64,000 bases of DNA from NCBI GenBank assembly GCA_964016885.1, contig OZ024741.1, forward strand, positions 366,296,001-366,360,000. Direction: 5' to 3'. Each line of letters starts with the position of its first letter. Position 1 is the first letter of the stretch. Source of the DNA: Eledone cirrhosa (Eukaryota). Positions 888-64,000 of the stretch are shown in pieces. Below the pieces are notes generated by a model. That model was not told the origin of the DNA, searched no databases, and saw only the letters and a list, made by a program, of their open reading frames with translations. A program made the translations under genes and the position numbers.

Positions 888-1282
888 CGATATTAAACAA
901 ATGGAAACTATATTTATAAAACCATATTTATTTCATTATATATATTTCAGGGATATCATATTAAAAATATGGTATGCCTTCCTCAGACAAAATACAATAT
1001 ATAAGCCGTTTTATAAATAAATTTGACATACCTTAAAATAATGCAACTTCCATTTAAAAAGTTGATTTGGTAGTGAAACTGTTAAGGACAGTTATAAAGA
1101 AAGACGAAGAAAAACGAAGAGAAAAAACGAAGAGAAAAAAGAAAAAAAGAAGGAAAGTGTATAGTGCTAAGGACGAAGAGAAGAAGAAAGAGAGTGTATA
1201 GTGCTAAGGACAGTTAGAGAAGAAGATGAAGAGATGTATGTAAAGAAAAACAACAGAGCGAGATAGAGAGAGAAGGAGATAT
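888..1282 (-). repeat. Inverted copy of the element 3' end (pseudo-LTR); partner at 3823-4217
   Basis: Reverse-complement match over 395 bp with one substitution seen. Confidence 0.95.
929..994 (-). ncRNA. Hammerhead ribozyme, inverted copy of 4111-4176
   Basis: Identical sequence inside the inverted pseudo-LTR. Confidence 0.85.
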
Positions 1283-4110: not shown

Positions 4111-4176
4111 TATTTTGTCTGAGGAAGGCATACCATATTTTTAATATGATATCCCTGAAATATATATAATGAAATA
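4111..4176 (+). ncRNA. Type I minimal hammerhead ribozyme
   Basis: TATTTTGT-CTGAGGA-[AGGcATAcCATATT ttt AATATGaTATcCCT]-GAAA-TATATA-TA-ATGAAATA. Stem I is 8 bp with 2 GU pairs and stem III is palindromic. Predicted cleavage after 4168; AATAAA follows. Confidence 0.85.
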
Positions 4177-12320: not shown

Positions 12321-13358
12321 GTTGTCTATATGTTTTGAATAGTTTACTTAATATATAAATGATCATTGATAAGAACAACAACAAAAATAGATTTTGAAAT
12401 CGTTAGACTGTTTGTAATGGGGTTGGTTAAGTTTCAAGAACTGAAATTTATTTAGTTTGGAAACGTAACGTAAATTATTGCTGTGTGTGGCTATATGTGT
12501 TAAGAAGCCGAAATGAATGCATATCACACATTGCCGTTTTGATTAAAGGTAACTTTACATAAGATAATTTAGACTTTCATAGCCATAAAAGTCGTTATGT
12601 ATGCATGTATGTATGTATGGATGCATGCAAACAAATAGGTCCATTGATTAGCTTAACCCATAAAGAAAACTCTCTCAAAATACGATAAACCAGCCACTGA
12701 CAACATCAGTCACTGGAAACATGGAGACAGATGTTACCAAGGCACAGACGACGCATTCGTAGTTTCTGTATAATAAAAAGGTTATTATCTGCAGCAACTA
12801 CAACCACATTACGTAATAGGCGTGCTGCTGTGTGCCGCGAAGCTTGTGTCAGAAAAATCATATTTATATATTTATATATATGTATATATATAGAATGTGA
12901 TTGAAACTGGATTGACATACATATTACTCGATGTATTTAGGTAAATTGTTTCTTTGGCTATTTACTACAACCTATTCCGATGACTGGCCCCAAATCAGCA
13001 GGTATTTTAGGCTGAGAATTTGGGCATGTCTCAGCCACACAAAGACACAGAATGGTCCACCTACGACGGTCTGCGAAGTTTCCTTCGACTTTATGATAAA
13101 GGATTCTACTCGCTTTCATTTTTCCTCTCTCGTTTTGCTTTTAATTTTTTTAAAAATCCGCTTCTCCACTCAGCCTCACTTCTTTGCTACTTCATCCGAT
13201 TATGTTGCCTTTAATATTTCCAACATCACCTTCATTGTAGGGGCTTCCAAACCAAATCATATATCAATGAATGTATGTGTATATGTGTCTATATAAATGT
13301 AGATATACACATATATGTGTGTATGTATATAAATATATATAAATATATATATATATAT

Positions 13359-14659
13359 GGAGAAGAAGTTTATGAAATGGAAATGCGGGTATACAGAATT
13401 TATTAGGTAACAATTGTTTCTATAGTGTATGGGTTATCTATACCTCGCTATTTGAATAATATAAAAATATTATCATAAACCGAAGGTACACTGTAAGCAA
13501 ACACACCATGTCGTCAGACCTTTGTATTGGAATGATATGAAAATATTTTATACACTAGATAAAAGATAAAGAAGGAGGTAGGAAGAGAAGGGGAAGAGGG
13601 AAGTGAGTAAGGTGGAGGGAGTCTTAGGATTTAAGACTGTCAGACTAGTAGAGATTGTAAGGATAGAATGTTTTGGCAGCAGTTAGCTTAATGAGGCGTG
13701 TTAGGGTTGGCGGGGGAAGTAAATTCTTCTAGTGGTGTTGTTCGGACAAAATTTAGTTAAAGGGGTCAAAGTGGTACAGTGTCACAGACAAGTTATTGGG
13801 GCTATTATAGTAGCAGGTTATTTCTAAAGGGGTCCAGAAAACAGTGTTTAGTACTATTATTATAGAAAGCCATATCTTGTGTATAAACATATAAAACAGA
13901 AATTTGCAAACGGTGGTGTAAAAAGGTAACATTATATGCATTTAAAAAAAGAAAAAGTCGTTTTCAAACGATGGTTACAGTATAGAGAACGTTCAATTTT
14001 GCTGTTCAAAAGTTTGTTTACCGACGTTAAAATGCAGTATATCTCCAAATTGCATAACTTGCAGAATCGATGATTTTGCTTATATGCAGGCGCATCTGTA
14101 ATAATTTGCCAATCAAGGGAGAATGCTTGATTGTTCCTCCGGAGCTGCCAGGCTTTATCGGCGAGGGTTGTTACGGAGCGCATTTTCTCGTGCCTGATCG
14201 AAGATCGATGTTGGTATAGGCGAGCCTTGAAAGAAGTTGCGGTACATCCGACGTAATACCATTTGTTGGTTCCGGAATTTATTGTACATCGGTAGACAAT
14301 ATTGCGTGCTAGGCACTGGTTATTCAGTGGGCACGTACCTGGTTTGGTGCAGTTACAATTATTTTTATGTTTTGCAGTAGAATCCTGGATAGTTTGGTGG
14401 GGTTGTAGTTGCGTGTTAGTGCGTTGTATGTTGCTATGCTGGTGCGCTGAGTCATTAGGGATGTACTTATTCAGTATTGGTGAGTTGAGTTTTTTAATTA
14501 GTTGTTCTATGTTAGGTGCAGTCGAGTATGAGAGTCTAATGGTGCGCGAGTTAAAGATGTTATAGTATTTATGTGAAGTTGTAAAGTGTTTATTGATTAG
14601 TGTATAGAATTGTGAGATAATCTTAGTGCTAATAGAAGAATTGTACACGGGGTTATACC

Positions 14660-14660
<1 letters not shown>
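13359..14660 (-). mobile_element. 5'-truncated Naiad element (linker plus GIY-YIG ORF 13932-14660, 3' UTR)
   Basis: WYNPVYN...CNCTKPGTCPLNNQC...IVY...YVGCTATSFKARLYQH...CKLCNLE...CNHR. Both ends abut (TA)n; related to the 62212 element. Confidence 0.9.
13405..13521 (-). ncRNA. Hammerhead ribozyme with 90-nt stem II
   Basis: AGGT-CTGACGA-c-ATGGTGTGT...ATACACTAT-a-GAAA-CAATTG-TT-ACCT-AATAAA. Confidence 0.75.
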
Positions 14661-14693
<33 letters not shown>

Positions 14694-15300: not shown

Positions 15301-15460
15301 ACACATATATATATATACATACATAAATGCATACATATTTGTAAATATGTATATATATATATACATACATATTTGTAAATATATATATATATATACATAT
15401 ATAATATGAGAGACGTAAAATAAGAAAATTATAAAATTAACTTACTTACTAAAAAATCAC

Positions 15461-15538
15461 TTCAAACTAATTAGTTTCTGGAATGGAGTAAATATATTTT
15501 CCGAAGAAACATATAGAAAATCATTCCGTCATCAGGAA
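15461..15538 (-). ncRNA. Hammerhead-like motif in an isolated pseudo-LTR remnant
   Basis: TTC-CTGATGA-c-GGAATG...(C-UUCG-G capped)...CATTCC-a-GAAA-CTAATTAG-TT-t-GAA; stem I is short and has one extra nucleotide. Confidence 0.6.
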
Positions 15539-23526: not shown

Positions 23527-23806
23527 CTCCTGTTGGTAAAGCCGAATATATATACTCTATATATATTTCTATATATTTAGGTTTGATATTATTTTCATGC
23601 ATCAATTTCTTCTATCTGTCTGTCTACTTATAAATCTATTCATCTATCTGTTTACCTACCTAAATATCTATCTTCCAATCTATTTGTCTATCTACCTATC
23701 AATGCGTCTATTCTATTTGCCTCTCTATCGATCTACCTAACTATTTATCTACCTCTGTACCTATCCCTTGTCTACATATCTATCTACTTATGTACCTGTC
23801 TACCTA

Positions 23807-25377
23807 ACAACCGACTCGGAGATCGAGACGATCGGTACCTTACTGGAGGAGTACGAAAGGTTGTCAGGAGCGAAACTGAACCGGGAAAAATCCATCGGGC
23901 TGCAACTCGGAACGTGGAGAGGCAGACCGATGCCTCCCGATGGTGTCGTCGGACACTGGACGGAGGGCCCGGTAAAGTTGCTTGGGGTCTGGTTTGGACC
24001 GGACCTCCAGGTGGAAAAGAACTGGAACGAGGTTACGAACAAGGTGTTTGCACTAACCCAGAAATGGGCCAAGTGTAAGCTGTCCCTAAAAGGCCGGGCG
24101 GAGGTGGCGAACATTTACATAGCGTCCGTCACTTACTACCGCCTGACTGTCGTGCCTTGCCCTAAGGAAACACTCACCACCATGGAACGCATGCTCTTCC
24201 AATTTCTTTGGAAGAAGCGTCCTCCTATGGTGAGAAGATCCATCTGCTGCCAACAACCTTCGAAAGGAGGGCTGGGGATGCCGTGGTTGATGATGCGTAG
24301 GCACGCATTAAGGCTACGGCACCTACAGGTATTCCTCACTGGTCAACCGGTGTGGGCTCCGTTCGTGAAACGAGCCTTTCCGAGACTCGTCTCACTCACC
24401 GAGCTACAGTCCTGGGTCAAGCAAAGATCCGGAAAACTGGGAGACTGGCACACTGAGTGTGCTCAGGCGCTCAGGGCTCTCTGGCAAGCGGGCCGGGCCA
24501 TCGGTGGAGAATCCACCTCATCATTCTATAGAGGGCTGGTGGCTAGCAGGGGCGATGACACCCTTGGAGAATCGCTGGACATGGAAGAAGACGAACTGGC
24601 CAGCCTGTTCGGTAGGACTTTCGGCCCAGGACCAATGGACAACTTCCAGAAGTCACTGGCCTGGCAGTGCTACCGAGGGGCTCTACCCGTTCGAGAGAGG
24701 CTCTACAGACACGGGCGCCCGGGCAGGGATCCCTCAAAAAAGATTTGCCCTAGATGCGTGCGTCACGAAGAAACCGTGGCGCACGCATTGGTGCAATGTC
24801 CGGGCGTGGCTGATCTGTGGGGCTACGCCGAACAACTGCTGTCGCGGGTGGCGCCGATTAAATTGACAGCCGAGTCCGTGATGACAATCAAACCGCCTCC
24901 CCTCTTCACAAAGGAAGCAAAGGCGGTTTTTCTGTGCGTAATAGCCATGTTGAAAGAGGTTGTTTGGTGGACACGATTGAAAGGTCTGAGGTCAGGCAAC
25001 TTCCTCTCTGGCCATAGTCTGGTCTACTTCTTCCGATATCACTTCGGAAGAAGGATAAGAATGGAGAGAGAGGTGCTTGGCCACAGGCAGTTTTATGAAA
25101 GGTGGGTGATAGTGGCGAGAATGGCTCGTGTAAATGGGCCTTCTCTGTATACCATCCTGTAGGTAAAGAAGTAAAGGAGAGGGGAGCACCTTCTCCATGT
25201 GCTCCCCGGGCAAAGGATTGCACACTTTTTCGGGGGTGTGTGCAACCCCCATCACGTCCCCTCCCTTTTGAGGTTATTTTCGATTATTTTCATGTTACAC
25301 CCTTTTTACTCGATTATATGTAAACTCCCCCTTTGTATTTGTCCCTTCTTTTTATGCCTTTATGGTAAATAAAGAAA
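23807..25377 (+). mobile_element. 5'-truncated Tx1/L1-clade LINE (ORF2 C-terminus to 25162, then 3' UTR)
   Basis: YERLSGAKLNREKS, VKLLGVWFG, LSLKGRA, GGLG, CPRC...ETVAHALVQC (zf-RVT). Uninterrupted frame, GC-rich, ends AATAAAGAAA. The first ~13 aa of the called ORF come from flanking (TCTA)n. Confidence 0.92.
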
Positions 25378-39119: not shown

Positions 39120-42100
39120 GGGGCCCTTTCTGCCCGTGTGTTTGTTTGTTTATGTGTGTCCGTATACAGCGTGGTGATAATGCCACACAAGGGCCAAGTG
39201 GGATGGCGGATCCACAGATGGCTATGTAAACATACATTCGCCAATCCTCGATAAGAGTGTTTAAATATCGAACATAAACAGTTCGAATAACGGTGAAATG
39301 GAGACTAGAACGTCATGTGACAGACTCTCACCCAACAGGTGCCCCCTGGCTCAGCAGCAGGAACCTGACTGTCAACGAAATACTGCTGATGTTGGAGGAA
39401 GAAGAAGAAGGAAAGGGGCCAGAACCAACTGGACGAAAGAATTGAATAGAACTGTTATGCAATGCTACCTGAAAAGTAACCCCAAGGAGAGGGGCTACAG
39501 GAGACGGATGCATAACATCTGGAACGAGATTGGTTTATTTAAATTAGATGAACAAAAATTGGCCGGGCAGGCTCGGGTAATAAGAACTAATGGGTGGATA
39601 AGCGAGCTGGAACTGGAGGAACTGAGCAGAGAGAATGGCTTGGAGATGGCGGGTGTAGTATGCCAGACAAGCGAGCCGGCGGGAAATGAGGGTGAGGAGG
39701 TCCTGAGAGCGGAGGAACCACCCGAAGCAGACAATGATCTGAATACTGAGATAAATAATACCTGGAACAGAGATACGGCCACTGAGGAGATGAATGCTGA
39801 CGGGCTAGGACAAGATTCGGTTGACATCCTAAATTTAGTGGTAGATGAGTTGAACAATGATAGTGGGAGACCTATGAACCTAAGATTTGTAGACAGGAAA
39901 AAGTTAAAAGAAACAACAGCTAAGGTAAACAAAGTCATCCCATACCTTGAGGCGAGGAGTCTTCACCAGTGCAACAATATCCTCAAAGCAACAGCAAATA
40001 CGGTGAGGAAACTACTTGGTATAAAAGCGAGAGGAAACAACAGACAAGAAAGAGCAAAGCCGTGGTGGAAGAAGCGACTGAGTGGGCAAATCGGGGAAAT
40101 GAGAAATGACATAGGAAAGCTTGAGTCACTACTGAATGGGACACTAAAAAACATAGGCACTAAAAATAGACTGGAAATAAAATACAAAACTAGGAGTAAA
40201 AAGCTAAATATTATCATAGAGGAATTGAAGCAACGCATTGTAGCAAAGAGTGCCAAAATCAGGCGATACGAGAACAGAGTCAGTCAGTATAAACAGAACC
40301 GCATGTTCGACAACAACCAGAAGATGCTGTTTGGACAGCTTGAGGGGAAAGAAAGAGGCACCGACTTGATCCCTGGGGCGGAACAAGCTAAAACATTCTG
40401 GAGAGGAATATGGGAGCAGGATGTTAGACACAATGCCCAGGCAGGGTGGATTGAGACAGTACAGAGGGAGATCGGTGAGCAGGCACAGCAACAGACTGAT
40501 TTGAGTATCACAGTTGAAACTCTTAAGGGGCAAGCCAAAAAACTAACCAACTGGAAATCACCAGGCCCAGATGGTGTGCAGGGGTATTGGATTAAACATT
40601 TAACATCCCTCCACCCGAAGCTGACGGCCATGTTCAATGACTGCTTGGTGTCGGGTGAGGTGCCAGAGTGGTTGACAAAAGGTACCACAGTTCTGATAAT
40701 GAAAGACCGAATCAAGGGTAATGATGTTACCAACTATAGACCTATCACATGTCTGCCCGTAATGTGGAAACTGTTGACGAGCATTGTGTCTGAGGAAATC
40801 TACCATCACCTCCACACAAACAACTTGTTGCCGGACGAACAGAAAGGATGCCGAAAGAAGTCACGTGGTACAAAGGACCAGTTGCTTATTGATAAGATGG
40901 TAATGGGGAATTGCAGGAGGAGACACACTGATCTTGCCATGGGATGGATAGACTACAGAAAGGCATTTGACATGGTGCCTCATTCCTGGATCACCAAAAG
41001 CCTGGAGATCTTCAGGGTGGCAGATAACATCAGACAGTTGCTGGGCAGGAGTATGGGGTCCTGGGAGACAGAGTTGACATCAACTGGAGTATCCTTGGGA
41101 AGCGTGAAGATCAAGAGAGGTATCTTCCAGGGAGATAGCCTGTCCCCTCTGTTGTTTGTCCTTGCCCTGATGCCCTTGACCATTATGCTGCGAAAAGTGA
41201 GAGCAGGATACAAGTTGGGAAGGGGAGAGCTTACCATCAATCACCTCCTCTTCATGGACGATCTTAAGCTCTTCGGGAAAAGTGAGAAGGAGTTGGATGT
41301 GCTTGTTGACACTGTCCGTATTTTCAGCAGTGATATATGTATGCAGTTTGGTATTGGTAAATGTGGAGTCATTGTGATGAGGAGGGGTAGGTTGAGCAGA
41401 AGTAACGGGATCCAGATACCAACAGGTGAGATGATAAAGGAAATTGACTCTGAGGAAGGATACAAGTATTTGGGCGTTCTGGAGGCTGATGGCATAAAGA
41501 ACAAAAAAATGAAGGAATTGTTAAGAACTGAATACATTCGGAGAGTAAGGAGCGTATTGAAGTCACATCTGAACAGCAGAAATGCCATAAGCGCAGTAAA
41601 TTCCCGAGCTGTGTCTATTATTAGGTACAGTGCGGGAATTCTGAGATGGAATGTTGCTGAACAAAAAGAAATGGATAGGAAGACTAGGAAGCTATTGACT
41701 ATCTACAACATGTTCCACAAGAGGAGTGATGTCGATAGACTCTACCTAAGGAGATCTGAGGGTGGAAGAGGTCTTATCAGCATAGAGGACTGTGTTCAGA
41801 TGGAGAAAAACAACCTATACAAATACGTGACCTATAGTAAGGAGCCAATGCTCAGAGCTGTACTGAAGGAGGGGACAGTAGGCCAGGGGATACCCAAGGA
41901 GGAAATAACATCAAGGAGGAAGAGCAGCCTTAAGGGAAAATCCCTTCATAGTACCTTCTTTGAGAAAACTGAATTTAGAGATCCACAGACATGGAACTGG
42001 TTGAGAAGAGGAGACCTCAAAAAGGCTACAGAAGGAATGCTAATGGCTGCGCAGGAGCAGGCCCTCAAAACGAAGTGGTTGAAGCACCATATCTACAAGG

Positions 42101-42776
42101 AGGAGGCTAGCCCACTGTGCAGGATCTGTGGAGAGAGAGAGGAGACTGTGGCTCACATTGTGTCCGAGTGTAAACACCTAGCCCAGACCCACTATAAGGG
42201 CTGGAGACACGATGTGATGGGCAGGGTGATCCACTGGCACCTGTGCAAAGTAAACAATCTACCACATTCTGAGAAATGGTATGAGCATAGGCCAGAGGCG
42301 GTGATGGAGAACAGTCAGGTGAAGGTGCTGTGGGATTTTAGGATACAGACGGACAAAAAACTGGAACACAATAGACCTGACCTGGTGGTTGTGGACAAAG
42401 AAAAAAGATCGTGCCTGATTGTGGATGTGGCCTGCCCGTTCGACACGAGAGTGCAAGAGAAGGAGAGGGAGAAAATTAACCGATACCAGGACCTAAAGTG
42501 GGAGGTGAAAAGGATTTGGAACTGCCATGAAGTCAAAGTGATCCCGATTGTCATAGGCGCACTGGGGACTATCTCCAAAGGTTTCCAGGGATGGTTAAAG
42601 AAAATCGGCCCCTTCACGCTTTTTGGAACGCTTCAAAAGGCATGCTTGCTTGGAACGGCAAGAACCCTCCGATACGTCCTGAATATCTGAGGCTGCAGGT
42701 AGTGGCTTGATATTCAATCCAACGGACTTTCCAGTTAACCAACATCAATGACTGAGATTCAAGGAATAACAATAAC

Positions 42777-42800
<24 letters not shown>
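39120..42800 (+). mobile_element. Apparently full-length Dong-like LINE, copy 1
   Basis: Structured putative 5' UTR (5' boundary uncertain), ORF, ~75-nt 3' UTR, (TAA)n tail. Confidence 0.9.
39298..42690 (+). CDS. R4/Dong-clade non-LTR retrotransposon ORF (RT plus restriction-like endonuclease), intact, 1130 aa
   Basis: N-terminal WTKELNRTVMQCY..GYRRRM..W; KSPGPDG; YRPITCL; IDYRKAFD; [10 protein letters not shown]; LFMDD; CRICG..E...H....C; RHD; RPDLVV; DVACPFD; KINRYQDL. Confidence 0.97.
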   Translation: METRTSCDRLSPNRCPLAQQQEPDCQRNTADVGGRRRRKGARTNWTKELNRTVMQCYLKSNPKERGYRRRMHNIWNEIGLFKLDEQKLAGQARVIRTNGWISELELEELSRENGLEMAGVVCQTSEPAGNEGEEVLRAEEPPEADNDLNTEINNTWNRDTATEEMNADGLGQDSVDILNLVVDELNNDSGRPMNLRFVDRKKLKETTAKVNKVIPYLEARSLHQCNNILKATANTVRKLLGIKARGNNRQERAKPWWKKRLSGQIGEMRNDIGKLESLLNGTLKNIGTKNRLEIKYKTRSKKLNIIIEELKQRIVAKSAKIRRYENRVSQYKQNRMFDNNQKMLFGQLEGKERGTDLIPGAEQAKTFWRGIWEQDVRHNAQAGWIETVQREIGEQAQQQTDLSITVETLKGQAKKLTNWKSPGPDGVQGYWIKHLTSLHPKLTAMFNDCLVSGEVPEWLTKGTTVLIMKDRIKGNDVTNYRPITCLPVMWKLLTSIVSEEIYHHLHTNNLLPDEQKGCRKKSRGTKDQLLIDKMVMGNCRRRHTDLAMGWIDYRKAFDMVPHSWITKSLEIFRVADNIRQLLGRSMGSWETELTSTGVSLGSVKIKRGIFQGDSLSPLLFVLALMPLTIMLRKVRAGYKLGRGELTINHLLFMDDLKLFGKSEKELDVLVDTVRIFSSDICMQFGIGKCGVIVMRRGRLSRSNGIQIPTGEMIKEIDSEEGYKYLGVLEADGIKNKKMKELLRTEYIRRVRSVLKSHLNSRNAISAVNSRAVSIIRYSAGILRWNVAEQKEMDRKTRKLLTIYNMFHKRSDVDRLYLRRSEGGRGLISIEDCVQMEKNNLYKYVTYSKEPMLRAVLKEGTVGQGIPKEEITSRRKSSLKGKSLHSTFFEKTEFRDPQTWNWLRRGDLKKATEGMLMAAQEQALKTKWLKHHIYKEEASPLCRICGEREETVAHIVSECKHLAQTHYKGWRHDVMGRVIHWHLCKVNNLPHSEKWYEHRPEAVMENSQVKVLWDFRIQTDKKLEHNRPDLVVVDKEKRSCLIVDVACPFDTRVQEKEREKINRYQDLKWEVKRIWNCHEVKVIPIVIGALGTISKGFQGWLKKIGPFTLFGTLQKACLLGTARTLRYVLNI

Positions 42801-42808
<8 letters not shown>

Positions 42809-44860
42809 TGTTACCAACTATAGACCTATCACATGTCTGCCCGTAATGTGGAAACTGTTGACGAGCATTGTGTCTGAGGAAATCTACCATCACCTCCACA
42901 CAAACAACTTGTTACCGGACGAACAGAAAGGATGCCGAAAGAAGTCACGTGGTACAAAGGACCAGTTGCTTATTGATAAGATGGTAATGGGGAATTGCAG
43001 GAGGAGAGACACTGATCTTGCCATGGGATGGATAGACTACAGAAAGGCATTTGACATGGTGCCTCATTCCTGGATCACCAAAAGCCTGGAGGTCTTCAGG
43101 GTGGCAGATAACATCAGACAGTTGCTGGGCAGGAGTATGGGGTCCTGGGAGACAGAGTTGACATCAACTGGAGTATCCTTGGGAACCGTGAAGATCAAGA
43201 GAGGTATCTTCCAGGGAGATAGCCTGTCCCCTCTGTTGTTTGTCCTTGCCCTGATGCCCTTGACCATTATGCTGCGAAAAGTGAGAGCAGGATACAAGTT
43301 GGGAAGGGGAGAGCTTACCATCAATCACCTCCTCTTCATGGACGATCTTAAGCTCTTCGGGAAAAGTGAGAAGGAGTTGGATGTGCTTGTTGACACTGTC
43401 CGTATTTTCAGCAGTGATATATGTATGCAGTTTGGTATTGGTAAATGTGGAGTCATTGTGATGAGGAGGGGTAGGTTGAGCAGAAGTAACGGGATCCAGA
43501 TACCAACAGGTGAGATGATAAAGGAAATTGACTCTGAGGAAGGATACAAGTATTTGGGCGTTCTGGAGGCTGATGGCATAAAGAACAAAAAAATGAAGGA
43601 ATTGTTAAGAACTGAATACATTCGGAGAGTAAGGAGCGTATTGAAGTCACATCTGAACAGCAGAAATGCCATAAGCGCAGTAAATTCCCGAGCTGTGTCT
43701 ATTATTAGGTACAGTGCGGGAATTCTGAGATGGAATGTTGCTGAACAAAAAGAAATGGATAGGAAGACTAGGAAGCTATTGACTATCTACAACATGTTCC
43801 ACAAGAGGAGTGATGTCGATAGACTCTACCTAAGGAGATCTGAGGGTGGAAGAGGTCTTATCAGCATAGAGGACTGTGTTCAGATGGAGAAAAACAACCT
43901 ATACAAATACGTGACCTATAGTAAGGAGCCAATGCTCAGAACTGTACTGAAGGAGGGGACAGTAGGCCAGGGGATGTCCAAGGAGGAAATAACATCAAGG
44001 AGGAAGAGCAGCCTTAAGGGAAAATCCCTTCGTAGTACCTTCTTTGAGAAAACTGAATTTAGAGATCCACAGACATGGAACTGGTTGAGAAGAGGAGACC
44101 TCAAAAAGGCTACAGAAGGAATGCTAATGGCTGCGCAGGAGCAGGCCCTCAAAACGAAGTGGTTGAAGCACCATATCTACAATGAGGAGGCTAGCCCACT
44201 GTGCAGGATCTGTGGAGAGAGAGAGGAGACTGTGGCTCACATTGTGTCCGAGTGTAAACACCTAGCCCAGACCCACTATAAGGGCTGGAGACACGATGTG
44301 ATGGGCAGGGTGATCCACTGGCACCTGTGCAAAGTAAACAACCTACCACATTCTGAGAAATGGTATGAGCATAGGCCAGAGGCGGTGATGGAGAACAGTC
44401 AGGTGAAGGTGCTGTGGGATTTTAGGATACAGACGGACAAAAAACTGGAACACAATAGACCTGACCTGGTGGTTGTGGACAAAGAAAAAAGATCGTGCCT
44501 GATTGTGGATGTGGCCTGCCCGTTCGACACGAGAGTGCAAGAGAAGGAGAGGGAGAAAATTAACCGATACCAGGACCTAAAGTGGGAGGTGAAAAGGATT
44601 TGGAACTGCCATGAAGTCAAAGTGATCCCGATTGTCATAGGCGCACTGGGGACTATCTCCAAAGGTTTCCAGGGATGGTTAAAGAAAATCGGCCCCTTCA
44701 CGCTTTTTGGAACGCTTCAAAAGGCATGCTTGCTTGGAACAGCAAGAACCCTCCGATACGTCCTGAATATCTGAGGCTGCAGGTAGTGGCTTGATATTCA
44801 ATCCAACGGACTTTCCAGTTAACCAACATCAATGACTGAGATTCAAGGAATAACAATAAC

Positions 44861-44912
<52 letters not shown>
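42801..44912 (+). mobile_element. 5'-truncated Dong-like LINE, copy 2 (open frame to 44774)
   Basis: Matches copy 1 from ~40721 onward with about 11 substitutions seen; same 3' UTR and (TAA)n tail. Confidence 0.95.
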
Positions 44913-44916
<4 letters not shown>

Positions 44917-47900
44917 GAAAGGATCGAAAAAGTGGAGGGAGTGCATGCTCAGGATGAAACTCCAAATGAAAATAATGAGATCGTAAATGATAAAGAAATG
45001 AATGAGAATGAACTTGCCAACTTGAAGGATGAAATTATGATCGAATGGATGAAAATGAAAGAATCTGACATGGGGCAACGAGACACCCTCCCTAAGATCC
45101 AGAACTACAAACAGAACCAAAAGATAATACACAAGACTAACATAATTCTCAAAAACATTATCATCACAAACAAACTAAACATTACTGATTTAAATCATCT
45201 CTATTATGCATCGGCTAAAGTCACCACTCACTTATGTGGAGTGAAGATGAAAAAACAAAGGAATTCCCACAAGAAATCTACTTGGCAAGAGAACATCAAT
45301 CGCCAAATAAACCTTCTCCGATCTGACATAGAAATTTTAACAAACTATAAAGTAGGTGAACATGTTAAACAAACTAAACTTAGAAAATTGAAAAAAAAGT
45401 ACAGTATAAAATCAACATGTGACATAGACATGCTGATAGAAATAATCAAGCAAAAAGTGTCGGCCAAAGCTGCTCGTATAAGGCGCTTTGAAAAACGATC
45501 TAGATTCTATAAGGACAATAATATGTTCAAAAACAACCAAAGAAACTTCTACAGAAAATTGGTAAGTCAACAATAACTGCTAAATCAATACCACCCAAGG
45601 AGGAAGTGCAAGAATTCTGGGAAAAGATCTGGGCCGAAGAAAAAGTTCATAACATACATGCCCCATGGATAGTCAGACAAATGAAAGATACAGCTCACCT
45701 TGAGGAACAAATATGGGAAAATATAACAGTTGAACAGTTGCGCTTGGCTCTAAGAAAATCCAGCAAATGGAAATCCCCAGGAAAAGACAAAATACAAAAC
45801 TTTTGGATAAATGCCTTCACAGAGTCTCATGAGCTGTTAGCCCAACTTTACAATGAAATAGTTAAGGAGCCAGAAAAGATACCATCATCGCTAGTTAACG
45901 GCATTACATGCCTGCTTCCGAAGAATGATGAGACAAACAATCCCAAAAATTACAGACCGATAACTTGCTTGACCACAATGTATAAAACTTTAACATCAGT
46001 CCTAACTGAATACACATATGACCACCTGATAACAAATGACCTTTTTCCCATTGAGCAGAAAGGGTGTAAACGAGGCTCATATGGCTGTAAGGATCAGCTT
46101 CTGGTTAACAAAATGATACTGGAAGATTGTCATAATAGACACAAAAATCTATCGATTGCTTGGATAGATTATAAAAAAGCATTCGATAGTTTACCACACA
46201 GTTGGATTGAAAAATGTTTAGAGATTTTCAAAATATCCCCCGTTGTCAGGAGGTTTTTGTCATTCAGTATGAAGACATGGAAAACGACACTCCTTTTGAA
46301 TAGTGAAACAAAATCACTGGAAGCTGGAGAAGTTAATATTAATTGTGGAATTTTTCAGGGTGACTCTTTATCACCGCTTTTATTCTGCATCGCACTTATA
46401 CCATTAAGTAAAATACCTCAATGAAACAAAACATGGATATAAAGTCTATGACAAAACCATTAATCACCTGTTCTACATGGATGACCTGAAACTATTTGCA
46501 AAAAATGATGAACAATTGCAATGGCTATTATCCACTGTGGAGCAGTTCAGTGATGACATTAAAATGGAGTTTGGACTAGATAAATGCGCCAAAGCAACGT
46601 TCACCAGAGGAAAGCTGCTGAAGAGTTCAGACATTAATCTTGATCGGGAGAACGTGATAAGAGAACTTGATCAAGAAAAAACTTACAAATATCTAGGTGT
46701 TTGTGAAGGAGACGGAATCAAGCACTCGACAATGAGGGAAAGGATAAGGAAGGAATGTTACCGCAGAGTAAGAGCAATCTTAAGAACGGAATTGAATGCA
46801 AGGAATAGGAACGATGCCATAAACACGCTTGCCATACCAGTAGTAACCTACAGTTACAATGTCATCAACTGGTCAAGCACAGAGATCCGTAGGCTCGATA
46901 CAAAAATTCGAAAATTCTTAACCATGCACAGAATGCATCACCCTAAGGCAGATATAGATAGAATATATCTCCCTAGGAAAGAAGGAGGACGTGGGTTAAT
47001 CCAGTTAGACATTGCGTTGAAAACTGCAACAATTGGATTATCTACATATCTAAGGGAATCACATGATTGGATGATCAAACTCGTTTTGAAGCACGAAAGC
47101 ATCAAAAGATCATATTCCATTACAAAAGATGCACAAAGATACAGTAATGGACTACAAATTTCAGAAGTCCCATTTACTGCTGAAATGGAAAACACAGAAA
47201 AAGCAAAGCAGGTAAAAGTAACTGCAAAGAAAGAACTGCTACAGAAACTGGCTAAGAAATGGCAAGAAAAGCCTCTGTATGGAAAATACCCAGAGCGAGC
47301 TAACAATCCTGATAACAATCCTGATGTTGACAAAACTTTAACCCATCAGTGGTTGGCATCCTCTGGACTGAAATCGGAGACTGAAGGACTGATTATATCA
47401 GCACAAGATCAGTGTCTGCCAACAAAAAATTACCAAGCCAACATAATAAAAAATGGATTCAGCCCATTATGCCGTGTATGCAAAAAACAACCAGAGACCA
47501 TTGACCATATAATTTCAATGTGCAGTCCTATAGCTCCAACCGAATACCTAAACAGGCATGACAGAGCTGCACAATACATACATTGGATAATGTGTAAGCA
47601 TTTTGACCTGCCCCATCAAAAGAATTGGTGGGAGCATCAACCACCTCCCATACTTGAAAAAGATCACATCTCAATCTTGTGGAACTTTAGCATCCAAACA
47701 GACCGAAAAATAGATGCAAATAGACCTGATATAATATTGAAGGACTTTAAAAAGAGGGTATGCCTGCTAATTGATATGTCTGTTCCAATAGACAAGAATG
47801 TATCTATAAAAACATTTAAAAAATTGAGCAAGTATAAGGACCTGGAGATAGAAATTGGAAAAAAGTGGAAATTGAGAACTAAAACAATACCAGTGGTTGT

Positions 47901-48036
47901 AGGCGCTCTGGAAATGATACCTAAGGGGTTTAATGATTACTTATCGCAGATCCCAGGAAACCCGCGTATAGGAGAAATACAAAAGATAGTACTAATGGGA
48001 ACTGCCCATATACTAAGGAAGATTCTGTCAATATAA
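44913..48036 (+). pseudogene. Second, more degenerate Dong/R4 family, 5'-truncated, two frameshifts
   Basis: ORFs 44932-45576, 45606-46424 and 46477-48036 are colinear with the 1130-aa ORF ([33 protein letters not shown]). Confidence 0.93.
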
Positions 48037-48433: not shown

Positions 48434-49330
48434 CATACACATACACATATATATAAACATTTATACATACATATACACACATATATATATATACATACAC
48501 TTATATACACATATAAAATTAATATCTAAAAATGAAAAGGGGTGGGTATGTAAAGGGTAAGGTAGAGAGTAGGTGGGAATAAGGAAAAGTTAAAAAATAA
48601 GAGGAGATAAGGGAGAAAGAGAAAATAAGGGTACAGAAAGTGAGTTCAGAGAGTAATAAAAGTCGTAGTAGATGTAAGGCGTAAAGGGCAAAGAAGAGGT
48701 TCAAGGTGGTTAAGTCATCGTAGCAAAGAAGAAGTTCAAGGTGGTTGAGTCATCGTAGGAATGTCAATCCAGTTACAGAGCAGATGTGATTTCAGGTGAG
48801 GACAACATCTGAAGATCTCGGTCTTGGAGTTAAGGCAAGTTGAAGAGGCTTTCAAATTCTGTAGAATTCTAAATTTTTCAGTGGTACACAAAGAACAATT
48901 CTTTGTGCCCCTTTGGTATTCCCTCGAATAGTCTAAAATAGACCAATCGATAGAGTACGGGATGTTGTTTTGTCACACACACACACACACAATATCTTTG
49001 AATTCCCACACCTTATTAGCGAGAGCCGTTGCTGTTCTTTTATCAGAGTGTTTAAAAGAAGCGACATGTGCATAAAACCTGGCTTTGAACCTGTCTTGAG
49101 TCATACCAACATATCGTTCACTCCTAGCTGGCTGGTTGTTAATCAAAGGTGTTACTTTGGCCTCATATACAACGGATTTGGTGTTACATTTGCCCTGCAA
49201 TGGGCATTCGTCCGGCTTTCTGCAACTGCATCCTGGATTTATTCTCGTACGATTAGAGTTGGTAATTTTAGACTTCATAGATGGGCAGCAAGAGTAACTA
49301 ATTTTAACTACATTTCTATTAAATATCTTA
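48070..49330 (-). mobile_element. Naiad fragment: GIY-YIG (48735-49330) split by a (GT)n insertion, plus probable 3' UTR
   Basis: CSCRKPDECPLQGKC..VVY..YVGMTQDRFKARFYAH..LANKVWEFK, resuming after (GT)n as NIPYSIDWSIL..CSLCTTEK..LNSKTEIFRCCPH. UTR extent uncertain. Confidence 0.8.
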
Positions 49331-49343
49331 TAATATCTATGAT

Positions 49344-49377
<34 letters not shown>

Positions 49378-49382
49378 ATCAT

Positions 49383-49580
49383 AACGTGAAATAAAGTGTC
49401 TTGCTCAAGGAAATAACGCATCTCCTGGACCAGGTGATGCGTTATGTCCTTGAGCAAGACACTTTATTTCACGTTGCTCCTTCTACCTGGAGTTGCGACC
49501 GATAGATAGTATTAGCAATTGGAAAGACCAACGGAAACATTGTTCCCTCGGTCCGATTTGACGAAAGTCGATCGTTCCTT
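49383..49580 (+). mobile_element. 5'-truncated SINE family B with fold-back 5' end
   Basis: Matches 6640-6790; 49383-49475 is a near-perfect palindrome. Confidence 0.8.
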
Positions 49581-59461: not shown

Positions 59462-61140
59462 CATACATACATACATACGACGAGCTTCCACACAATTTTC
59501 GTCTATCAAATTTCATACATAAAACCTTTGTAATACCGAGGCTATAATAGAAAGTGCTTGTCCGGGGTGCCACACAATAGAACTGAACCTGATACCACCA
59601 GCTAGCAAAGCAAACTCCTTATCTGCATCTATCAAGAAAAGTATTGTTTTTTTCTATCAGTGTTCTGGACCATATCTTCAGCTCTTAACAATAAAGAGTG
59701 TTATCTGCATGTTGTAAATGAGAATATTTTCCACAAGGAAATCTAATTTCAATTAGTTGTTGATAAGTTCGTTATGAAGGTGAAGTCGCTTCAACTGTGA
59801 AGAAAAAGTTAACACAATATTAAATCATAAAACAAGTCATAGAATAAAGGATTTCAATTTTTTAAAGCAATTTTTTCTTTAAAATGGATGCATTAAAAAA
59901 TACTTTGCGTATTTTTTGTTTGTTTGGTTCTTCTTTTAAAAATATGATAGAAAGATTGTAAAACAAAATGCCAGAAAATAGGCTTTTTGAATCTCCAACA
60001 GAGAAATATCGACTTAAAATTAACGAGTTGAGAGAACAGCCATCGTCGTCTTTATTGCATTGTTTCTGGATTTAAAAGAATCACTTGGAGACAAAATGAT
60101 ATAGTTACTGACAGTAAAGATTGTAAGAATAAATATTAATAACCGCAAAGTAATTATTTGAATGCGATGCTTGAGCAGTTATATTGATAATTATTGCTCT
60201 AGAAACTCATAGATGAAATTTAATCATTTTTAATTTAAAATTTAAAAACTAATATAACAAGCATGTATGCGTAGTTAAGTTCTTGGAAAAGCATCTCGTG
60301 TTCAGACCTCAATGGGATTTTCTATGTTTCTGGGTTAATCTAGAATACACTGCCTATCACAAAACACTACAAACACGTACAGTAGCACTCACAATTCTTC
60401 TGGTTTTCGTAGAGAATGACTCACTGGTCTAACACCGTGTCGAGATGAATTAGAGTCACACTCCATTTAACGGCCATCTTGTTTAATATAAATTCTTTGT
60501 GTATCTATATTTATTTATGTTCTTCTTTAATTCATTTTATGTATTTTTTTATGGTTCGCATAGTCTTTTCTTCATCCAGTTAACCCTTTTTTATGATTCA
60601 AAATATTTTATGTTATGCTTGCAAAATAATACAAATATTATAGTTACTAAGATAGAGTTTCCATTACACTTTTACAAATTTCATTATTTCAATAATTCAT
60701 TTAATATAAAAATGATACTTGGTAAATTTCCCTGGACTCTGTCACCCAATGTGTAACATTAAGATAATATCTAAATACATTTTATGACCAGTTCACTGGT
60801 TGCTAAATGAAGCGTGTCAGTATTTTGTTCACAAGATACAGAACATTAAACATCTATTCACACATAGCATGTTTACTGATTTCCTTCTTTGCCCTAAGTT
60901 TCTTTACCCATCTTTGTTATATCTGCCTGAATCACTCTCAGAGAAAACAATTTTTTTACAGCCAACAAATGAGGTTAGTCTGTACGTTGTTGGTTTGATT
61001 GTGTATACGGAGGAATATTAATATAGCCACTCTATTATATATATATATATGTGTGTGTCTGTACAAATATATGTATAGGTATATATATATATATATATAT
61101 ATAGAAAGATTTGAATGGATACAGTTTAGTTGAAAGGAAT

Positions 61141-61257
61141 TTATTGACACGTGTTTCTATAACAGTTACATAACCTAAAACAGCTATCTACAAACTTTTA
61201 GTTATGCAGACATTCAATATTTCAATGTTATTGTTTACTGTCATTTCATCAGAATAA
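61141..61257 (-). ncRNA. Hammerhead ribozyme with 88-nt stem II
   Basis: TTATT-CTGATGA-a-ATGACAGT...ACTGTTAT-a-GAAA-CACGTG-TC-AATAA; GUC cleavage triplet. Confidence 0.82.
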
Positions 61258-61847
61258 TATTACTGAGGACCTATTTAGTTTTTATAGAGAATATTAGGAG
61301 GAAGGGGTGAAGTTGTTAGAAGAATAGTTGAAGGAGTGGTTTTTCGATAGCAGTGAGAATTCTTGGTGGCAGTGATTAATTAGATTCCCATCTGTTGTTT
61401 TGACATTTTTTATAGAATATATTATTGGTTATTTTTCTAAATCTATAGAAGGATTAGAGATAGTAAAGATATGCGTGGTTGGTTTTGTGTTTGCACTTAA
61501 CATTCAGACTTAAATTTTTCTTTCAAGTGTACGTATTCTTTCACCCACGCATTCACACACAAATATATTTGCACACCTCTACAAAATACATATACTCACA
61601 ATTCACATATTCATACTTACATATATATACACATGCATACACATATATATACACACATGTATTCATGTACATACATACGCGCTCATGTGTATACATTTTC
61701 ATACTCAACTTATCTTTATATATACACACGTATAGACACACACATATATACATACATACTCTAGTCCATGTGTACACACATACACATACATACACATCCA
61801 TATACACATACATACATACACACATATATATACATACATACATATAC

Positions 61848-61892
<45 letters not shown>

Positions 61893-61893
61893 C

Positions 61894-61942
<49 letters not shown>

Positions 61943-62211
61943 AGCACTTTAATACATGAATACACTTACATCTAACTATACACATCAAACATATATATAT
62001 ATTTACTTATTTATATACATTTTCACATATATATACATACTTATGGACGTTTTTAGACACATTCATTATCGCATATTTGTACCTATTCTCATCAGCATAT
62101 CTTTTCATTATTAGTATGGTAATTTAAGGTTATTAATATATGTTGAAAAGAGATTGTTTTTATATTTTTCTAACTAGATTAAGGTTTATATAGTTGGGGG
62201 ATGTCCCTCTT

Positions 62212-63999
62212 TTATGTAATATTCGGCTTGTAGTGGGAAAAAAGGGTTTTAGTTCTGTGACGGCAGAATAATGTTCGTTCAATTCTGTTATTCAGCAGTT
62301 TCTTCTTGTGTGTGATTATGTAATAAATCTCAAGATTACACAATTTGCAGAAATTTTGGCTCCTGGAAAAGCTTTGGGTTTTAGCTAATTTTTCCCATTT
62401 TAGGGTAAACTTTTGATTGCTATCCCTGAGCGTCCAAGCTTTCTCTGCTAAAGTTGTTACATTTCTTTGGCTCTGGTGTTTTATTGAGTAAGAATGCCTA
62501 TACAATCGAGATTTAAACGATGTTGCCGTTGATCCCACGTAATACCACTCGTTGCCTCCGGATTTAATGGTACACTTATAAATAATATTTTTTTCCAGGC
62601 AGTTATTGCCGAGGGGGCAGTTGTCAGGATAGGTGCAGTTACAGTTGTGTACGTTGGATTTTCTCTGGAGTAGTATTGCGGACGAACTTAGGTGTGGTTT
62701 ATTTATGTTCTGTAGTGTATTGTCTACTGTTTTTTTGGGGTTCTTTGTACTTAAGTTCTTAGTGTTTTCGTTTAACCTTCTAGTATTGATCTTTTTTATG
62801 TGTTGTTCAAGGTTTAACGCTGTAGAGTATGACAGTCTTATAGTGGTAGGGTTTAGGATTTTGTGGTATTTGTGTGATGTGGGAAAATGTCTTTTAATTA
62901 TTTTAAAGAAGAGTACTGGTAAATTTGTACTAATGGAGCTATTGTATTCGGGGTTATACCATAAGTACTCTTTGCATCGCTTTCTATTAGTTTTGTTTGT
63001 TGGTTTACTGGTGTGCATACTATGGTAGTAAGTGTGGTTTGGTGTTGTGTTATTATATCTACCTATGTGGGATTTATTTTGGGTGTTTTGATTGTTCCCA
63101 TCTATGTACTCTATTTTGTTGAGGTAGCCTGCTTTACTAAGGGCGTTATCGTAGTACTCGGCGTGTTCCTTAAATACTTGTATGTTAGAAGATAGACCCG
63201 AGATTCTAAGGGAAATATTTTTAGGGATAGATTTAATTATAGAGATGGGGTGGTTAGACCCAACATTTACGTATTTGAGATTTTCATTCAATTTATGAAA
63301 CGGTTTAATCAAACCAGAGTTTAAATTGAGTGTGACATCCAGGAAGTTAACTACTTTAAGGTTGTATTCATATGTTATAGTTAGTCCTATTTCGAGTAGT
63401 AGTTTTCTTATATCTTTGCGTAGTTTTTCTAGTTTTTGGTTATTAAGGTTTTTAGCTAGGAGGAGAACATCGTCGCGGTATATTCCGCCGTGGAGATTGC
63501 TGAATTTTTCCTGGAGTCTAAAGGCGATAAATAACCCCACAATATCAGTTATTTCCGCCGAATCGTTAGAGCCCATTGTTATGTCAAAGTTAGAGGGTCT
63601 ATCTTTACGTACCCAATAACTGTTCTCAAATTTGACTATAGTTTTCCTAGCTTCTAATATAATCTTAATTTCATCGTTTGTAAGGTCGGAGTTATCCTTA
63701 GCAAACTTAATGGCTCTATTCAAAGTTTCAGGTGATATCGATGAGTAATATTCATCGATATCAAACTGGATAAACTTAGATTTATTCTTATTGCTAATGC
63801 TATTAAACCATCTTATTGCTTCTTGGGTCTTCCCCCAGAGTTTAATGTTAACCTTAGCCTTAATTTGGGGGATGATTCTATCTAAGATATATTTGCTTAT
63901 TTTACCTATATCTGATTTAGAGGGGCAGATTAATCTAATTTTAGGGTCATTATCAAAGTTTACCTTGTGGTCCTTAAGATTGAAAGTGGGTACCGCCGG
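62212..63999 (-). CDS. Naiad-clade Penelope-like RT/GIY-YIG ORF, open to the window edge
   Basis: Manual extension beyond 63723 has no stop: LKDHKVNF..PKIRLICPSKSDIGKISK..FIQFDIDEYYSSIS. Then FDITMGSNDSAE, GIYRDD, CNC-x5-CPL-x3-C, YVGSTATSFKSRL, CKLC, CRHR. Confidence 0.96.
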   Translation of the reverse strand, partial: PAVPTFNLKDHKVNFDNDPKIRLICPSKSDIGKISKYILDRIIPQIKAKVNIKLWGKTQEAIRWFNSISNKNKSKFIQFDIDEYYSSISPETLNRAIKFAKDNSDLTNDEIKIILEARKTIVKFENSYWVRKDRPSNFDITMGSNDSAEITDIVGLFIAFRLQEKFSNLHGGIYRDDVLLLAKNLNNQKLEKLRKDIRKLLLEIGLTITYEYNLKVVNFLDVTLNLNSGLIKPFHKLNENLKYVNVGSNHPISIIKSIPKNISLRISGLSSNIQVFKEHAEYYDNALSKAGYLNKIEYIDGNNQNTQNKSHIGRYNNTTPNHTYYHSMHTSKPTNKTNRKRCKEYLWYNPEYNSSISTNLPVLFFKIIKRHFPTSHKYHKILNPTTIRLSYSTALNLEQHIKKINTRRLNENTKNLSTKNPKKTVDNTLQNINKPHLSSSAILLQRKSNVHNCNCTYPDNCPLGNNCLEKNIIYKCTIKSGGNEWYYVGSTATSFKSRLYRHSYSIKHQSQRNVTTLAEKAWTLRDSNQKFTLKWEKLAKTQSFSRSQNFCKLCNLEIYYIITHKKKLLNNRIERTLFCRHRTKTLFSHYKPNIT

Positions 64000-64000
64000 T

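What the first reader, a model, noticed from the sequence alone, without database searches (positions are those of the whole stretch)
13405..13521. Hammerhead variant: long stem II with an N.A mismatch at the 10.1-11.1 position, in three different elements
Seen: 13405-13521(-), 61141-61257(-) and 15461-15538(-) all read CUGANGA-(C or A)-helix...helix-A-GAAA-palindrome-UH. Stem II inserts are 90, 88 and 50 nt, and the helix sequences differ but still pair (ATGGTGTGT/ATACACTAT, ATGACAGT/ACTGTTAT, GGAATG/CATTCC). Known: this position is normally a base pair (usually G-C), and PLE hammerheads are usually minimal with palindromic stem III acting as dimers. Inference: recurrence argues for a real structural subclass rather than decay, and standard descriptors requiring that pair or a short stem II would miss it.
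Basis: partly seen in the sequence, partly recalled or inferred. Interest (0 to 1): 0.72.

Follow-up and report, generated by a model that had tools for sequence, protein, structure and literature searches.

The report
Long-armed hammerheads with loosened junction pair
The three motifs are predicted self-cutting hammerhead RNAs at the ends of two young Penelope-type jumping genes and one non-coding repeat; their long second arm and unpaired junction base are fixed in thousands of copies, but an unpaired base there is already in print, it switches between paired and unpaired in sister families, and cutting is untested.

Summary
Observation confirmed: all three motifs sit where stated (0 of 200 shuffles give one). 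Two lie in the pseudo-LTRs of sister Hydra-type Penelope-like elements (62% protein identity); the third is a damaged fragment of a 525-nt non-coding tandem repeat. That is two lineages, not three. The mismatch is family consensus, not decay, and replaces the 10.1-11.1 pair without change of length. It is not a fixed N·A class: sister subfamilies carry A-U (524 against 3,057 A·A), G-C, G·U or U·U. Still, long stems and mismatches go together here (14 of 15 long-stem clusters against 5 of 18 short), and in the repeat's lineage C·A persists while the helix covaries, next to a predicted pseudoknot. Unpaired junctions are published: U·U in 14 of 25 Hydra-clade families, one C·A, an active axolotl U·U ribozyme; the 2014 descriptor allows them and misses these motifs through loop and helix III length. 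Not found in print: 50-116-nt stem II domains. This scan already noted long-armed Hydra hammerheads on other DNA. New variant of a known kind; cleavage untested.

The parts
13405..13521 (-). Type I hammerhead motif, family 1: C10.1 (13510) opposite A11.1 (13421), 90-nt stem II domain, predicted cut after 13409 (GUU)
   Evidence: 42 of 42 scanned copies C·A (sample biased to close copies)
13355..14661 (-). 5'-truncated copy of a Hydra-type Penelope-like element (family 1): linker, GIY-YIG endonuclease, 3' UTR/pLTR with the hammerhead, (TA)n on both sides
   Evidence: (98.6% to L091)
61141..61257 (-). Type I hammerhead motif, family 2: A10.1 (61245) opposite A11.1 (61158), 88-nt stem II domain, predicted cut after 61146 (GUC)
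61101..64000 (-). Full-length Hydra-type Penelope-like element (family 2); open RT + GIY-YIG frame 62212-64000 runs on beyond the window; a second hammerhead lies about 3.6 kb upstream and an inverted truncated copy beyond it
   Evidence: locus L367
15461..15538 (-). Damaged hammerhead motif, family 3: C10.1 (15528) opposite A11.1 (15479), 50-nt stem II domain; leader and most of the 5' strand of stem I lost, position 1.1 changed
15401..15538 (-). 3'-end fragment of a 525-nt non-coding tandem repeat (retrozyme-like) inserted in (TA)n
   Evidence: 98.5% over 135 nt to the unit in L073; longest open frame 76 aa

Best explanation
These are type I hammerhead motifs in the pseudo-LTRs of young Hydra-type Penelope-like retrotransposons (sites 1, 2) and in a non-coding tandem repeat (site 3) that are predicted to cut slowly, likely as dimers and with help from the element's protein, and whose 10.1-11.1 position likely tolerates a non-Watson-Crick pair because a long stem II holds the domain. 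Shown: location, intact cores, family-wide mismatch, covarying helices, switching of the junction between paired and unpaired states. Inferred: stem II is a proximal helix of 6-9 bp, an internal loop standing where loop 2 stands, and an added distal hairpin; in family 3 the internal loop is predicted to pair with the leader 5' of stem I (pseudoknot). Inferred: the 8-10-nt palindromes give only 2-3 bp of helix III alone and 8-10 bp between two tandem copies (3.6 kb or 525 nt apart). Inferred: cutting would release unit-length RNA, while new insertions are copied from uncut or re-ligated RNA, since copies keep the whole core and a tail of about 42-59 nt.
For: Context. Consensus mismatch. Substitution without length change in six homologous groups. 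Amplified paired sister of family 2: 524 against 3,057 (99 of the first 100 listed are U). Covariation in family 3 lineage: third pair AU 12, GC 11, UA 9, CG 2 of 34 while 33 of 34 junctions are unpaired (34 of 40 distinct sequences given). Association with length: 14 of 15 against 5 of 18 clusters; 71-101-nt spacers M..A 10,518, U..U 4,501, G..Y 1,307 (controls 320, 64, 69). Pseudoknot. Precedent: active U·U axolotl ribozyme, better as dimer; protein-assisted PLE hammerhead, cleavage not needed for insertion.
Against: No cleavage data. Only U·U is documented as an active mismatch, and it is reported as the best tolerated mispair, so C·A and A·A may be much slower. Folding z-scores are modest (-1.6, -1.9, -2.4) and nil for family 3 (+0.4, +0.2), and unconstrained folding does not give the hammerhead fold for sites 1 and 2. 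No convincing leader pairing was found for families 1 and 2. In the family 3 lineage the mismatch looks kept rather than merely tolerated, which fits the first rival better. Clusters are not phylogenetically independent, one long cluster was a tie counted as mismatch, and the scanner can miss bulged stems.
Confidence: 0.55

Rival explanations
1. The M·A junction is selected: it tunes cleavage down or makes it depend on the element's protein, which would bind the long arm.
For: Family 3 lineage: of 10,684 copies only 479 have a base other than C at 10.1 with A kept at 11.1. Among the first 100 of these, counted by eye, about 64 are A·A (an amplified subfamily with tandem arrays), about 33 U-A scattered over many subfamilies as CpG decay would give, 3 G. 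The C sits in a CpG whose commonest change would close a U-A pair, yet the founders kept C or went to A. No cluster with C-G and none with U-A as majority in the census.
Against: Family 2 has an amplified A-U sister; other long-stem lineages hold both G-C and U·U. Three or four of the U-A copies share one subfamily sequence, so a small paired subfamily may exist.
Confidence: 0.25
2. The motif is kept as a folded handle for the reverse transcriptase near the start of cDNA synthesis and no longer cuts in these lineages.
For: Copy ends lie about 42-59 nt past the cut site; in a Poseidon element catalytic mutants still insert and uncut RNA is the main template.
Against: All core bases, C3-G8 (or its U3-A8 covariant), A15.1-U16.1, UH and a palindromic helix III are kept across 100 census hits and dozens of diverged clusters; the scan required these, but the reversed control gave 2.
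Confidence: 0.12
3. Both unpaired bases are insertions that bulge out, and the next pair is the true 10.1-11.1 (the known extra nucleotide after A9 plus an extra A before G12).
For: In family 3 the next pair is G-C in 32 of 34, as in PLE-X1_cBra and the 2014 consensus; in families 1 and 2 it is purine-pyrimidine too.
Against: Homologues with a closed pair align without gaps and keep the same length; several mismatched lineages have U-A or C-G as next pair.
Confidence: 0.08

Closest known systems
Hammerheads of Hydra-clade PLEs (Craig et al. 2021, PMC8557442; section 11, passages, supplement part 2 with File S2 read)
   Same: Type I, 3' position in the element, (TA)n targets, short palindromic helix III, unpaired 10.1-11.1 common (U·U in 14 of 25 families, U·C in 1); the Chara element PLE-X1_cBra has C·A over G-C exactly as family 3.
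   Different: Listed Hydra stem II domains are at most 26 nt; here 50-116 nt. No Hydra row has C·A or A·A.
Minimal PLE hammerheads (Cervera and De la Pena 2014, PMC4209133; parts 1-2 of 4 and the supplementary PDF read)
   Same: In pLTRs, long helix II (7-8 bp), unpaired base after A9, palindromic helix III, proposed dimers, low activity; descriptor allows extra N10 and N11; 1 of 56 rows has AGAAA (by text order the Cotesia row, A·A over G-C; row assignment inferred).
   Different: Loop 2 limited to 3-10 nt, G10.1-C11.1 highly conserved, mostly no helix III; my re-implementation of the descriptor finds 0 of the 3 sites and 3 of 98 census hits.
Metazoan non-LTR retrozymes, axolotl HHR_Amex2 (Cervera and de la Pena 2020, PMC7229834; passages and section 15 read; bioRxiv 10.64898/2026.07.22.740005 parts 1-2 of 5)
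   Same: Non-coding tandem units each with a type I hammerhead; Amex2 has U·U at the base of helix II in about 60,000 copies and cleaves (22% in 1 h as monomer, more as dimer).
   Different: Family 3 has C·A, a 50-nt stem II, a 10-nt palindrome, a predicted pseudoknot and a 525-nt unit.
Pseudoknotted and core-variant natural hammerheads (Perreault et al. 2011, PMC3088659; passages read)
   Same: Pseudoknot replacing the loop 1-loop 2 contact; weak stem II; natural U10.1-U11.1.
   Different: Short stems II; C·A or A·A did not appear in the passages seen.

Membership tests
Type I hammerhead ribozyme | Core CUGANGA, GAAA, A15.1-U16.1, UH, C3-G8 | tested here: met
Type I hammerhead ribozyme | Helices I, II, III around the core | tested here: met
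   stem I 4-6 bp, stem II 6-9 bp, palindromic III; covariation; the window's site 3 copy alone has a broken stem I
Type I hammerhead ribozyme | Watson-Crick R10.1-Y11.1 (highly conserved, not strictly required: active U·U cases in PMC3088659, PMC7229834) | tested here: not met
   C·A, A·A, C·A
Type I hammerhead ribozyme | Self-cleavage 3' of H17 | not testable with these tools
   only contigs were available
Minimal PLE hammerhead (2014 descriptor) | Loop 2 of 3-10 nt and two bases between GAAA and UH | tested here: not met
Minimal PLE hammerhead (2014 descriptor) | Position in the pLTR, one copy per tandem repeat | tested here: met
   families 1 and 2: L091, L094, L095, L367
Hydra clade of PLEs | RT then C-terminal GIY-YIG; RWK and DKT motifs; CxCx5C linker; CxxC and CxH in the endonuclease | tested here: met
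   read by eye in P0001 against section 11; P0002 lacks its N-terminus, shows the linker, CxxC and CxH. Pfam gave no hit for 3 of 3 proteins
Hydra clade of PLEs | Insertion into (TA)n | tested here: met
Hydra clade of PLEs | Length generally under 3 kb | tested here: inconclusive
   family 2 unit about 3.6 kb with a long, partly simple-repeat 3' UTR; family 1 unit about 3.0 kb
Hydra clade of PLEs | Placement in an RT tree with reference Hydra families | not tested
   reference proteins were not available as tool sequences; the tree holds own-genome rows only
Non-LTR retrozyme | Non-coding tandem units, a type I hammerhead in each | tested here: met
   spacings 522-571 nt in 21 of 21 neighbouring pairs; longest frame 76 aa
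Non-LTR retrozyme | Circular monomer RNA | not testable with these tools
   no raw RNA reads

The most novel reading that the evidence does not exclude
C·A and A·A at 10.1-11.1 are a selected catalytic gate: a long-armed, in part pseudoknotted hammerhead that stays off until the retroelement's own protein or a second copy engages the arm, kept in tens of thousands of copies and in a CpG context that would otherwise close the pair.
Probability: 0.2. Interest if true: 0.7.

Novelty: new variant of a known kind. Interest (0 to 1): 0.42.

Why it matters
What hammerheads do in Penelope-like elements is open (PMC8557442, PMC11167929). This genome offers natural near-isogenic pairs (A·A against A-U in family 2, U·U against G-C in another lineage) in young families, one with an intact open frame, so junction pair, arm length, dimer and protein can be tested one by one. 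Descriptor searches capped at a 10-nt loop 2 miss most of these motifs (3 of 98 recovered), so counts of genomic hammerheads in such animals are likely far too low. The mismatch alone is not news.

Tried and rejected
Rfam: no hammerhead among the 150 of 165 matches shown. Pfam: nothing for 3 proteins. RNA evidence: no RNA holder listed; laid runs were contigs of unknown kind and show no ends; single contigs from two other coded organisms keep A·A at site 2, weak. Copy ends at the cut site: none, but the loci were picked by queries that span the site, so this is no fair test. Leader-stem II pairing in families 1 and 2: only short, non-homologous candidates. Rule 'next pair is purine-pyrimidine in all mismatched families': fails. 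First guess Neptune clade: dropped for Hydra. In the tree row L027 pairs a family 1 endonuclease with a foreign hammerhead and was ignored; L278 and L363 were too short to enter. (16,285) is swollen by an unrelated repeat and was not used as a count. Two weak hits were dropped from the census (98 of 100 kept). A-U long stems were not counted genome-wide. Lunse et al. 2017 and Arkhipova et al. 2017 are not held; both could describe long or mismatched stems II. Supplements of the bioRxiv retrozyme preprint were not seen.

Full report
Observation. The three motifs are present as described. A scan of the window found sites 1 and 2 with full stems and a further inverted pair at 929-994 and 4111-4176. 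Site 3 failed because its stem I is damaged in this copy.

What carries them. The window lies in an unnamed 3.0-Gb animal genome. Each motif belongs to a young repeat family: the 40 best-scored hits are 99-100% identical for sites 1 and 2 and 97-100% for site 3, from 1,050, 313 and 1,323 candidates. Sites 1 and 2 lie about 410 and 950 nt behind a GIY-YIG endonuclease that follows a reverse transcriptase. Full elements have one motif in each tandem pseudo-LTR (L091, L094, L095), and the window's site 2 element is full-length with an open frame, a second motif about 3.6 kb upstream and an inverted copy. The two proteins are 62% identical, their stem II domains align, and their endonucleases group with a U·U family of the same length (support 94/98). 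Site 3 is the 3' end of a 525-nt non-coding tandem unit.

Decay or design. The mismatch is the consensus: 42 of 42, 52 of 53 and 58 of 59 scanned copies (close copies over-represented). In the site 3 lineage (10,684 matches, control 0) the helix below it covaries while the junction stays open: 33 of 34 unpaired, third pair in all four Watson-Crick forms, 74 two-sided cells against 25 in shuffles (related sequences inflate this control). In the 90-nt group 11 of 17 predicted pairs change on both sides among three families (9 sequences). The inserts fold as long irregular hairpins with modest z-scores, nil for family 3.

A subclass? To avoid picking, I took 120 evenly spaced 10-kb stretches. They hold 100 motifs against 2 in the reversed control. 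Of 98 kept: A-U 33, G-C 22, U·U 19, C·A 11, A·A 4, A·C 3, G·U 2, U-A 1, and 3 with a 5' bulge only; 16 of the A-U hits come from two tandem arrays. By cluster, 14 of 15 with stem II of 44 nt or more are mismatched against 5 of 18 shorter ones (Fisher p 0.0002; clusters not independent, one tie counted as mismatch). Genome-wide patterns with 71-101-nt spacers give M..A 10,518, U..U 4,501, G..Y 1,307. So the link with length is real here. But homologues swap states without gaps: C·A, U·U, G-C and A-U in a 14-nt group; A·A, C·A, G-C and G·U in a 58-63-nt group; A·A and A-U in family 2, where the paired sister has 524 copies against 3,057. The feature is a loosened junction, not a fixed N·A. The site 3 lineage is the exception: 479 of 10,684 differ at 10.1, mostly an amplified A·A subfamily, with U-A scattered (first 100 counted by eye).

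Tertiary contact. In the site 3 lineage the leader 5' of stem I is complementary over 5-7 nt to the first internal loop of stem II, with one two-sided change in the window's subfamily (mean 4.9 bp own, 4.4 crossed, 3.9 shuffled, 50 sequences, not independent). Two other long-stem lineages show a like pairing without clear covariation. Families 1 and 2 show none that convinces.

Mechanism. Most likely these are slow, dimer- and protein-assisted ribozymes in which a long, pre-folded stem II, in some lineages with a pseudoknot, lets the junction drift among purine-pyrimidine pairs and C·A, A·A or U·U. Copies end about 42-59 nt past the cut site (family 1: 19 of 36 ends at +49 or +57; family 3: 21 of 57 at +59; family 2: 8 of 37 at +45, the rest running into (TA)n, biased sample), so insertions derive from uncut or re-ligated RNA, as shown for a Poseidon element whose hammerhead cuts only with protein (passages). 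All functional steps are inferred.

What is known. The 2014 paper reports long helix II and an unpaired base after A9, and its descriptor allows an extra base on each side with loop 2 of 3-10 nt. File S2 of the 2021 paper lists U·U in 14 of 25 Hydra families and C·A in one Chara element, all filed as canonical; Hydra stem II domains there reach 26 nt. Natural U·U is also in PMC3088659 and in an active axolotl ribozyme. My re-implemented descriptor finds none of the three sites; freeing helix III recovers 38 of 98 census hits, freeing loop 2 as well 75 of 98 and both intact sites. Searches that found no account of 50-116-nt stem II domains in these elements. Two key papers were not held. PMC11300833, PMC7761336 and PMC6765202 were seen as passages only. 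This scan has already noted long-armed Hydra hammerheads, an A·A case and pseudoknots in this and other genomes (unreviewed leads, not support).

Verdict. Real and inherited; a new variant of PLE and retrozyme hammerheads, new in arm length and in the scale of C·A and A·A, not in the open junction itself. Interest 0.42.

Noticed in passing
window 929-994(-) and 4111-4176(+): Inverted pair of hammerheads (A-U junction, 31-nt stem II with an inner C·C mismatch, ATATATAT palindrome) in 397-nt perfect inverted repeats around a Hydra-like frame at 1339-2622.
   Followed up: partly
L164, L248, L293, L199 and others: A C·C (or U·C) mismatch at the fourth position of stem II recurs in the 26-, 30-, 58-63- and 100-116-nt groups.
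   Followed up: no
L159, L234, L287, L223, L214, L278: Several clusters use the covariant U3-A8 core, including long-stem C·A and U·U forms.
   Followed up: no
L200, L229, L331, L356, L364; L121, L127, L229, L286: Leader-to-stem II complementarity in a 96-nt three-way-branched lineage (G-C and U·U subfamilies) and in a 48-nt lineage.
   Followed up: partly
window 39265-48036(+): Tandem long frames with reverse transcriptase, zinc knuckle and restriction-like endonuclease features, separated by (AAT)n; resemble R4/Dong-type non-LTR elements (recalled, not tested).
   Followed up: no
window 23741-25162(+): 473-aa frame resembling the C-terminal part of an L1/Tx1-type element (recalled, not tested).
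   Followed up: no
window 48973-49404(-): Another Hydra-like linker and endonuclease fragment; no hammerhead found by the scans.
   Followed up: no
L237, L241: Arrays of a 310-nt unit, each with a short A-U hammerhead (11 and 5 copies), a plain retrozyme candidate.
   Followed up: no
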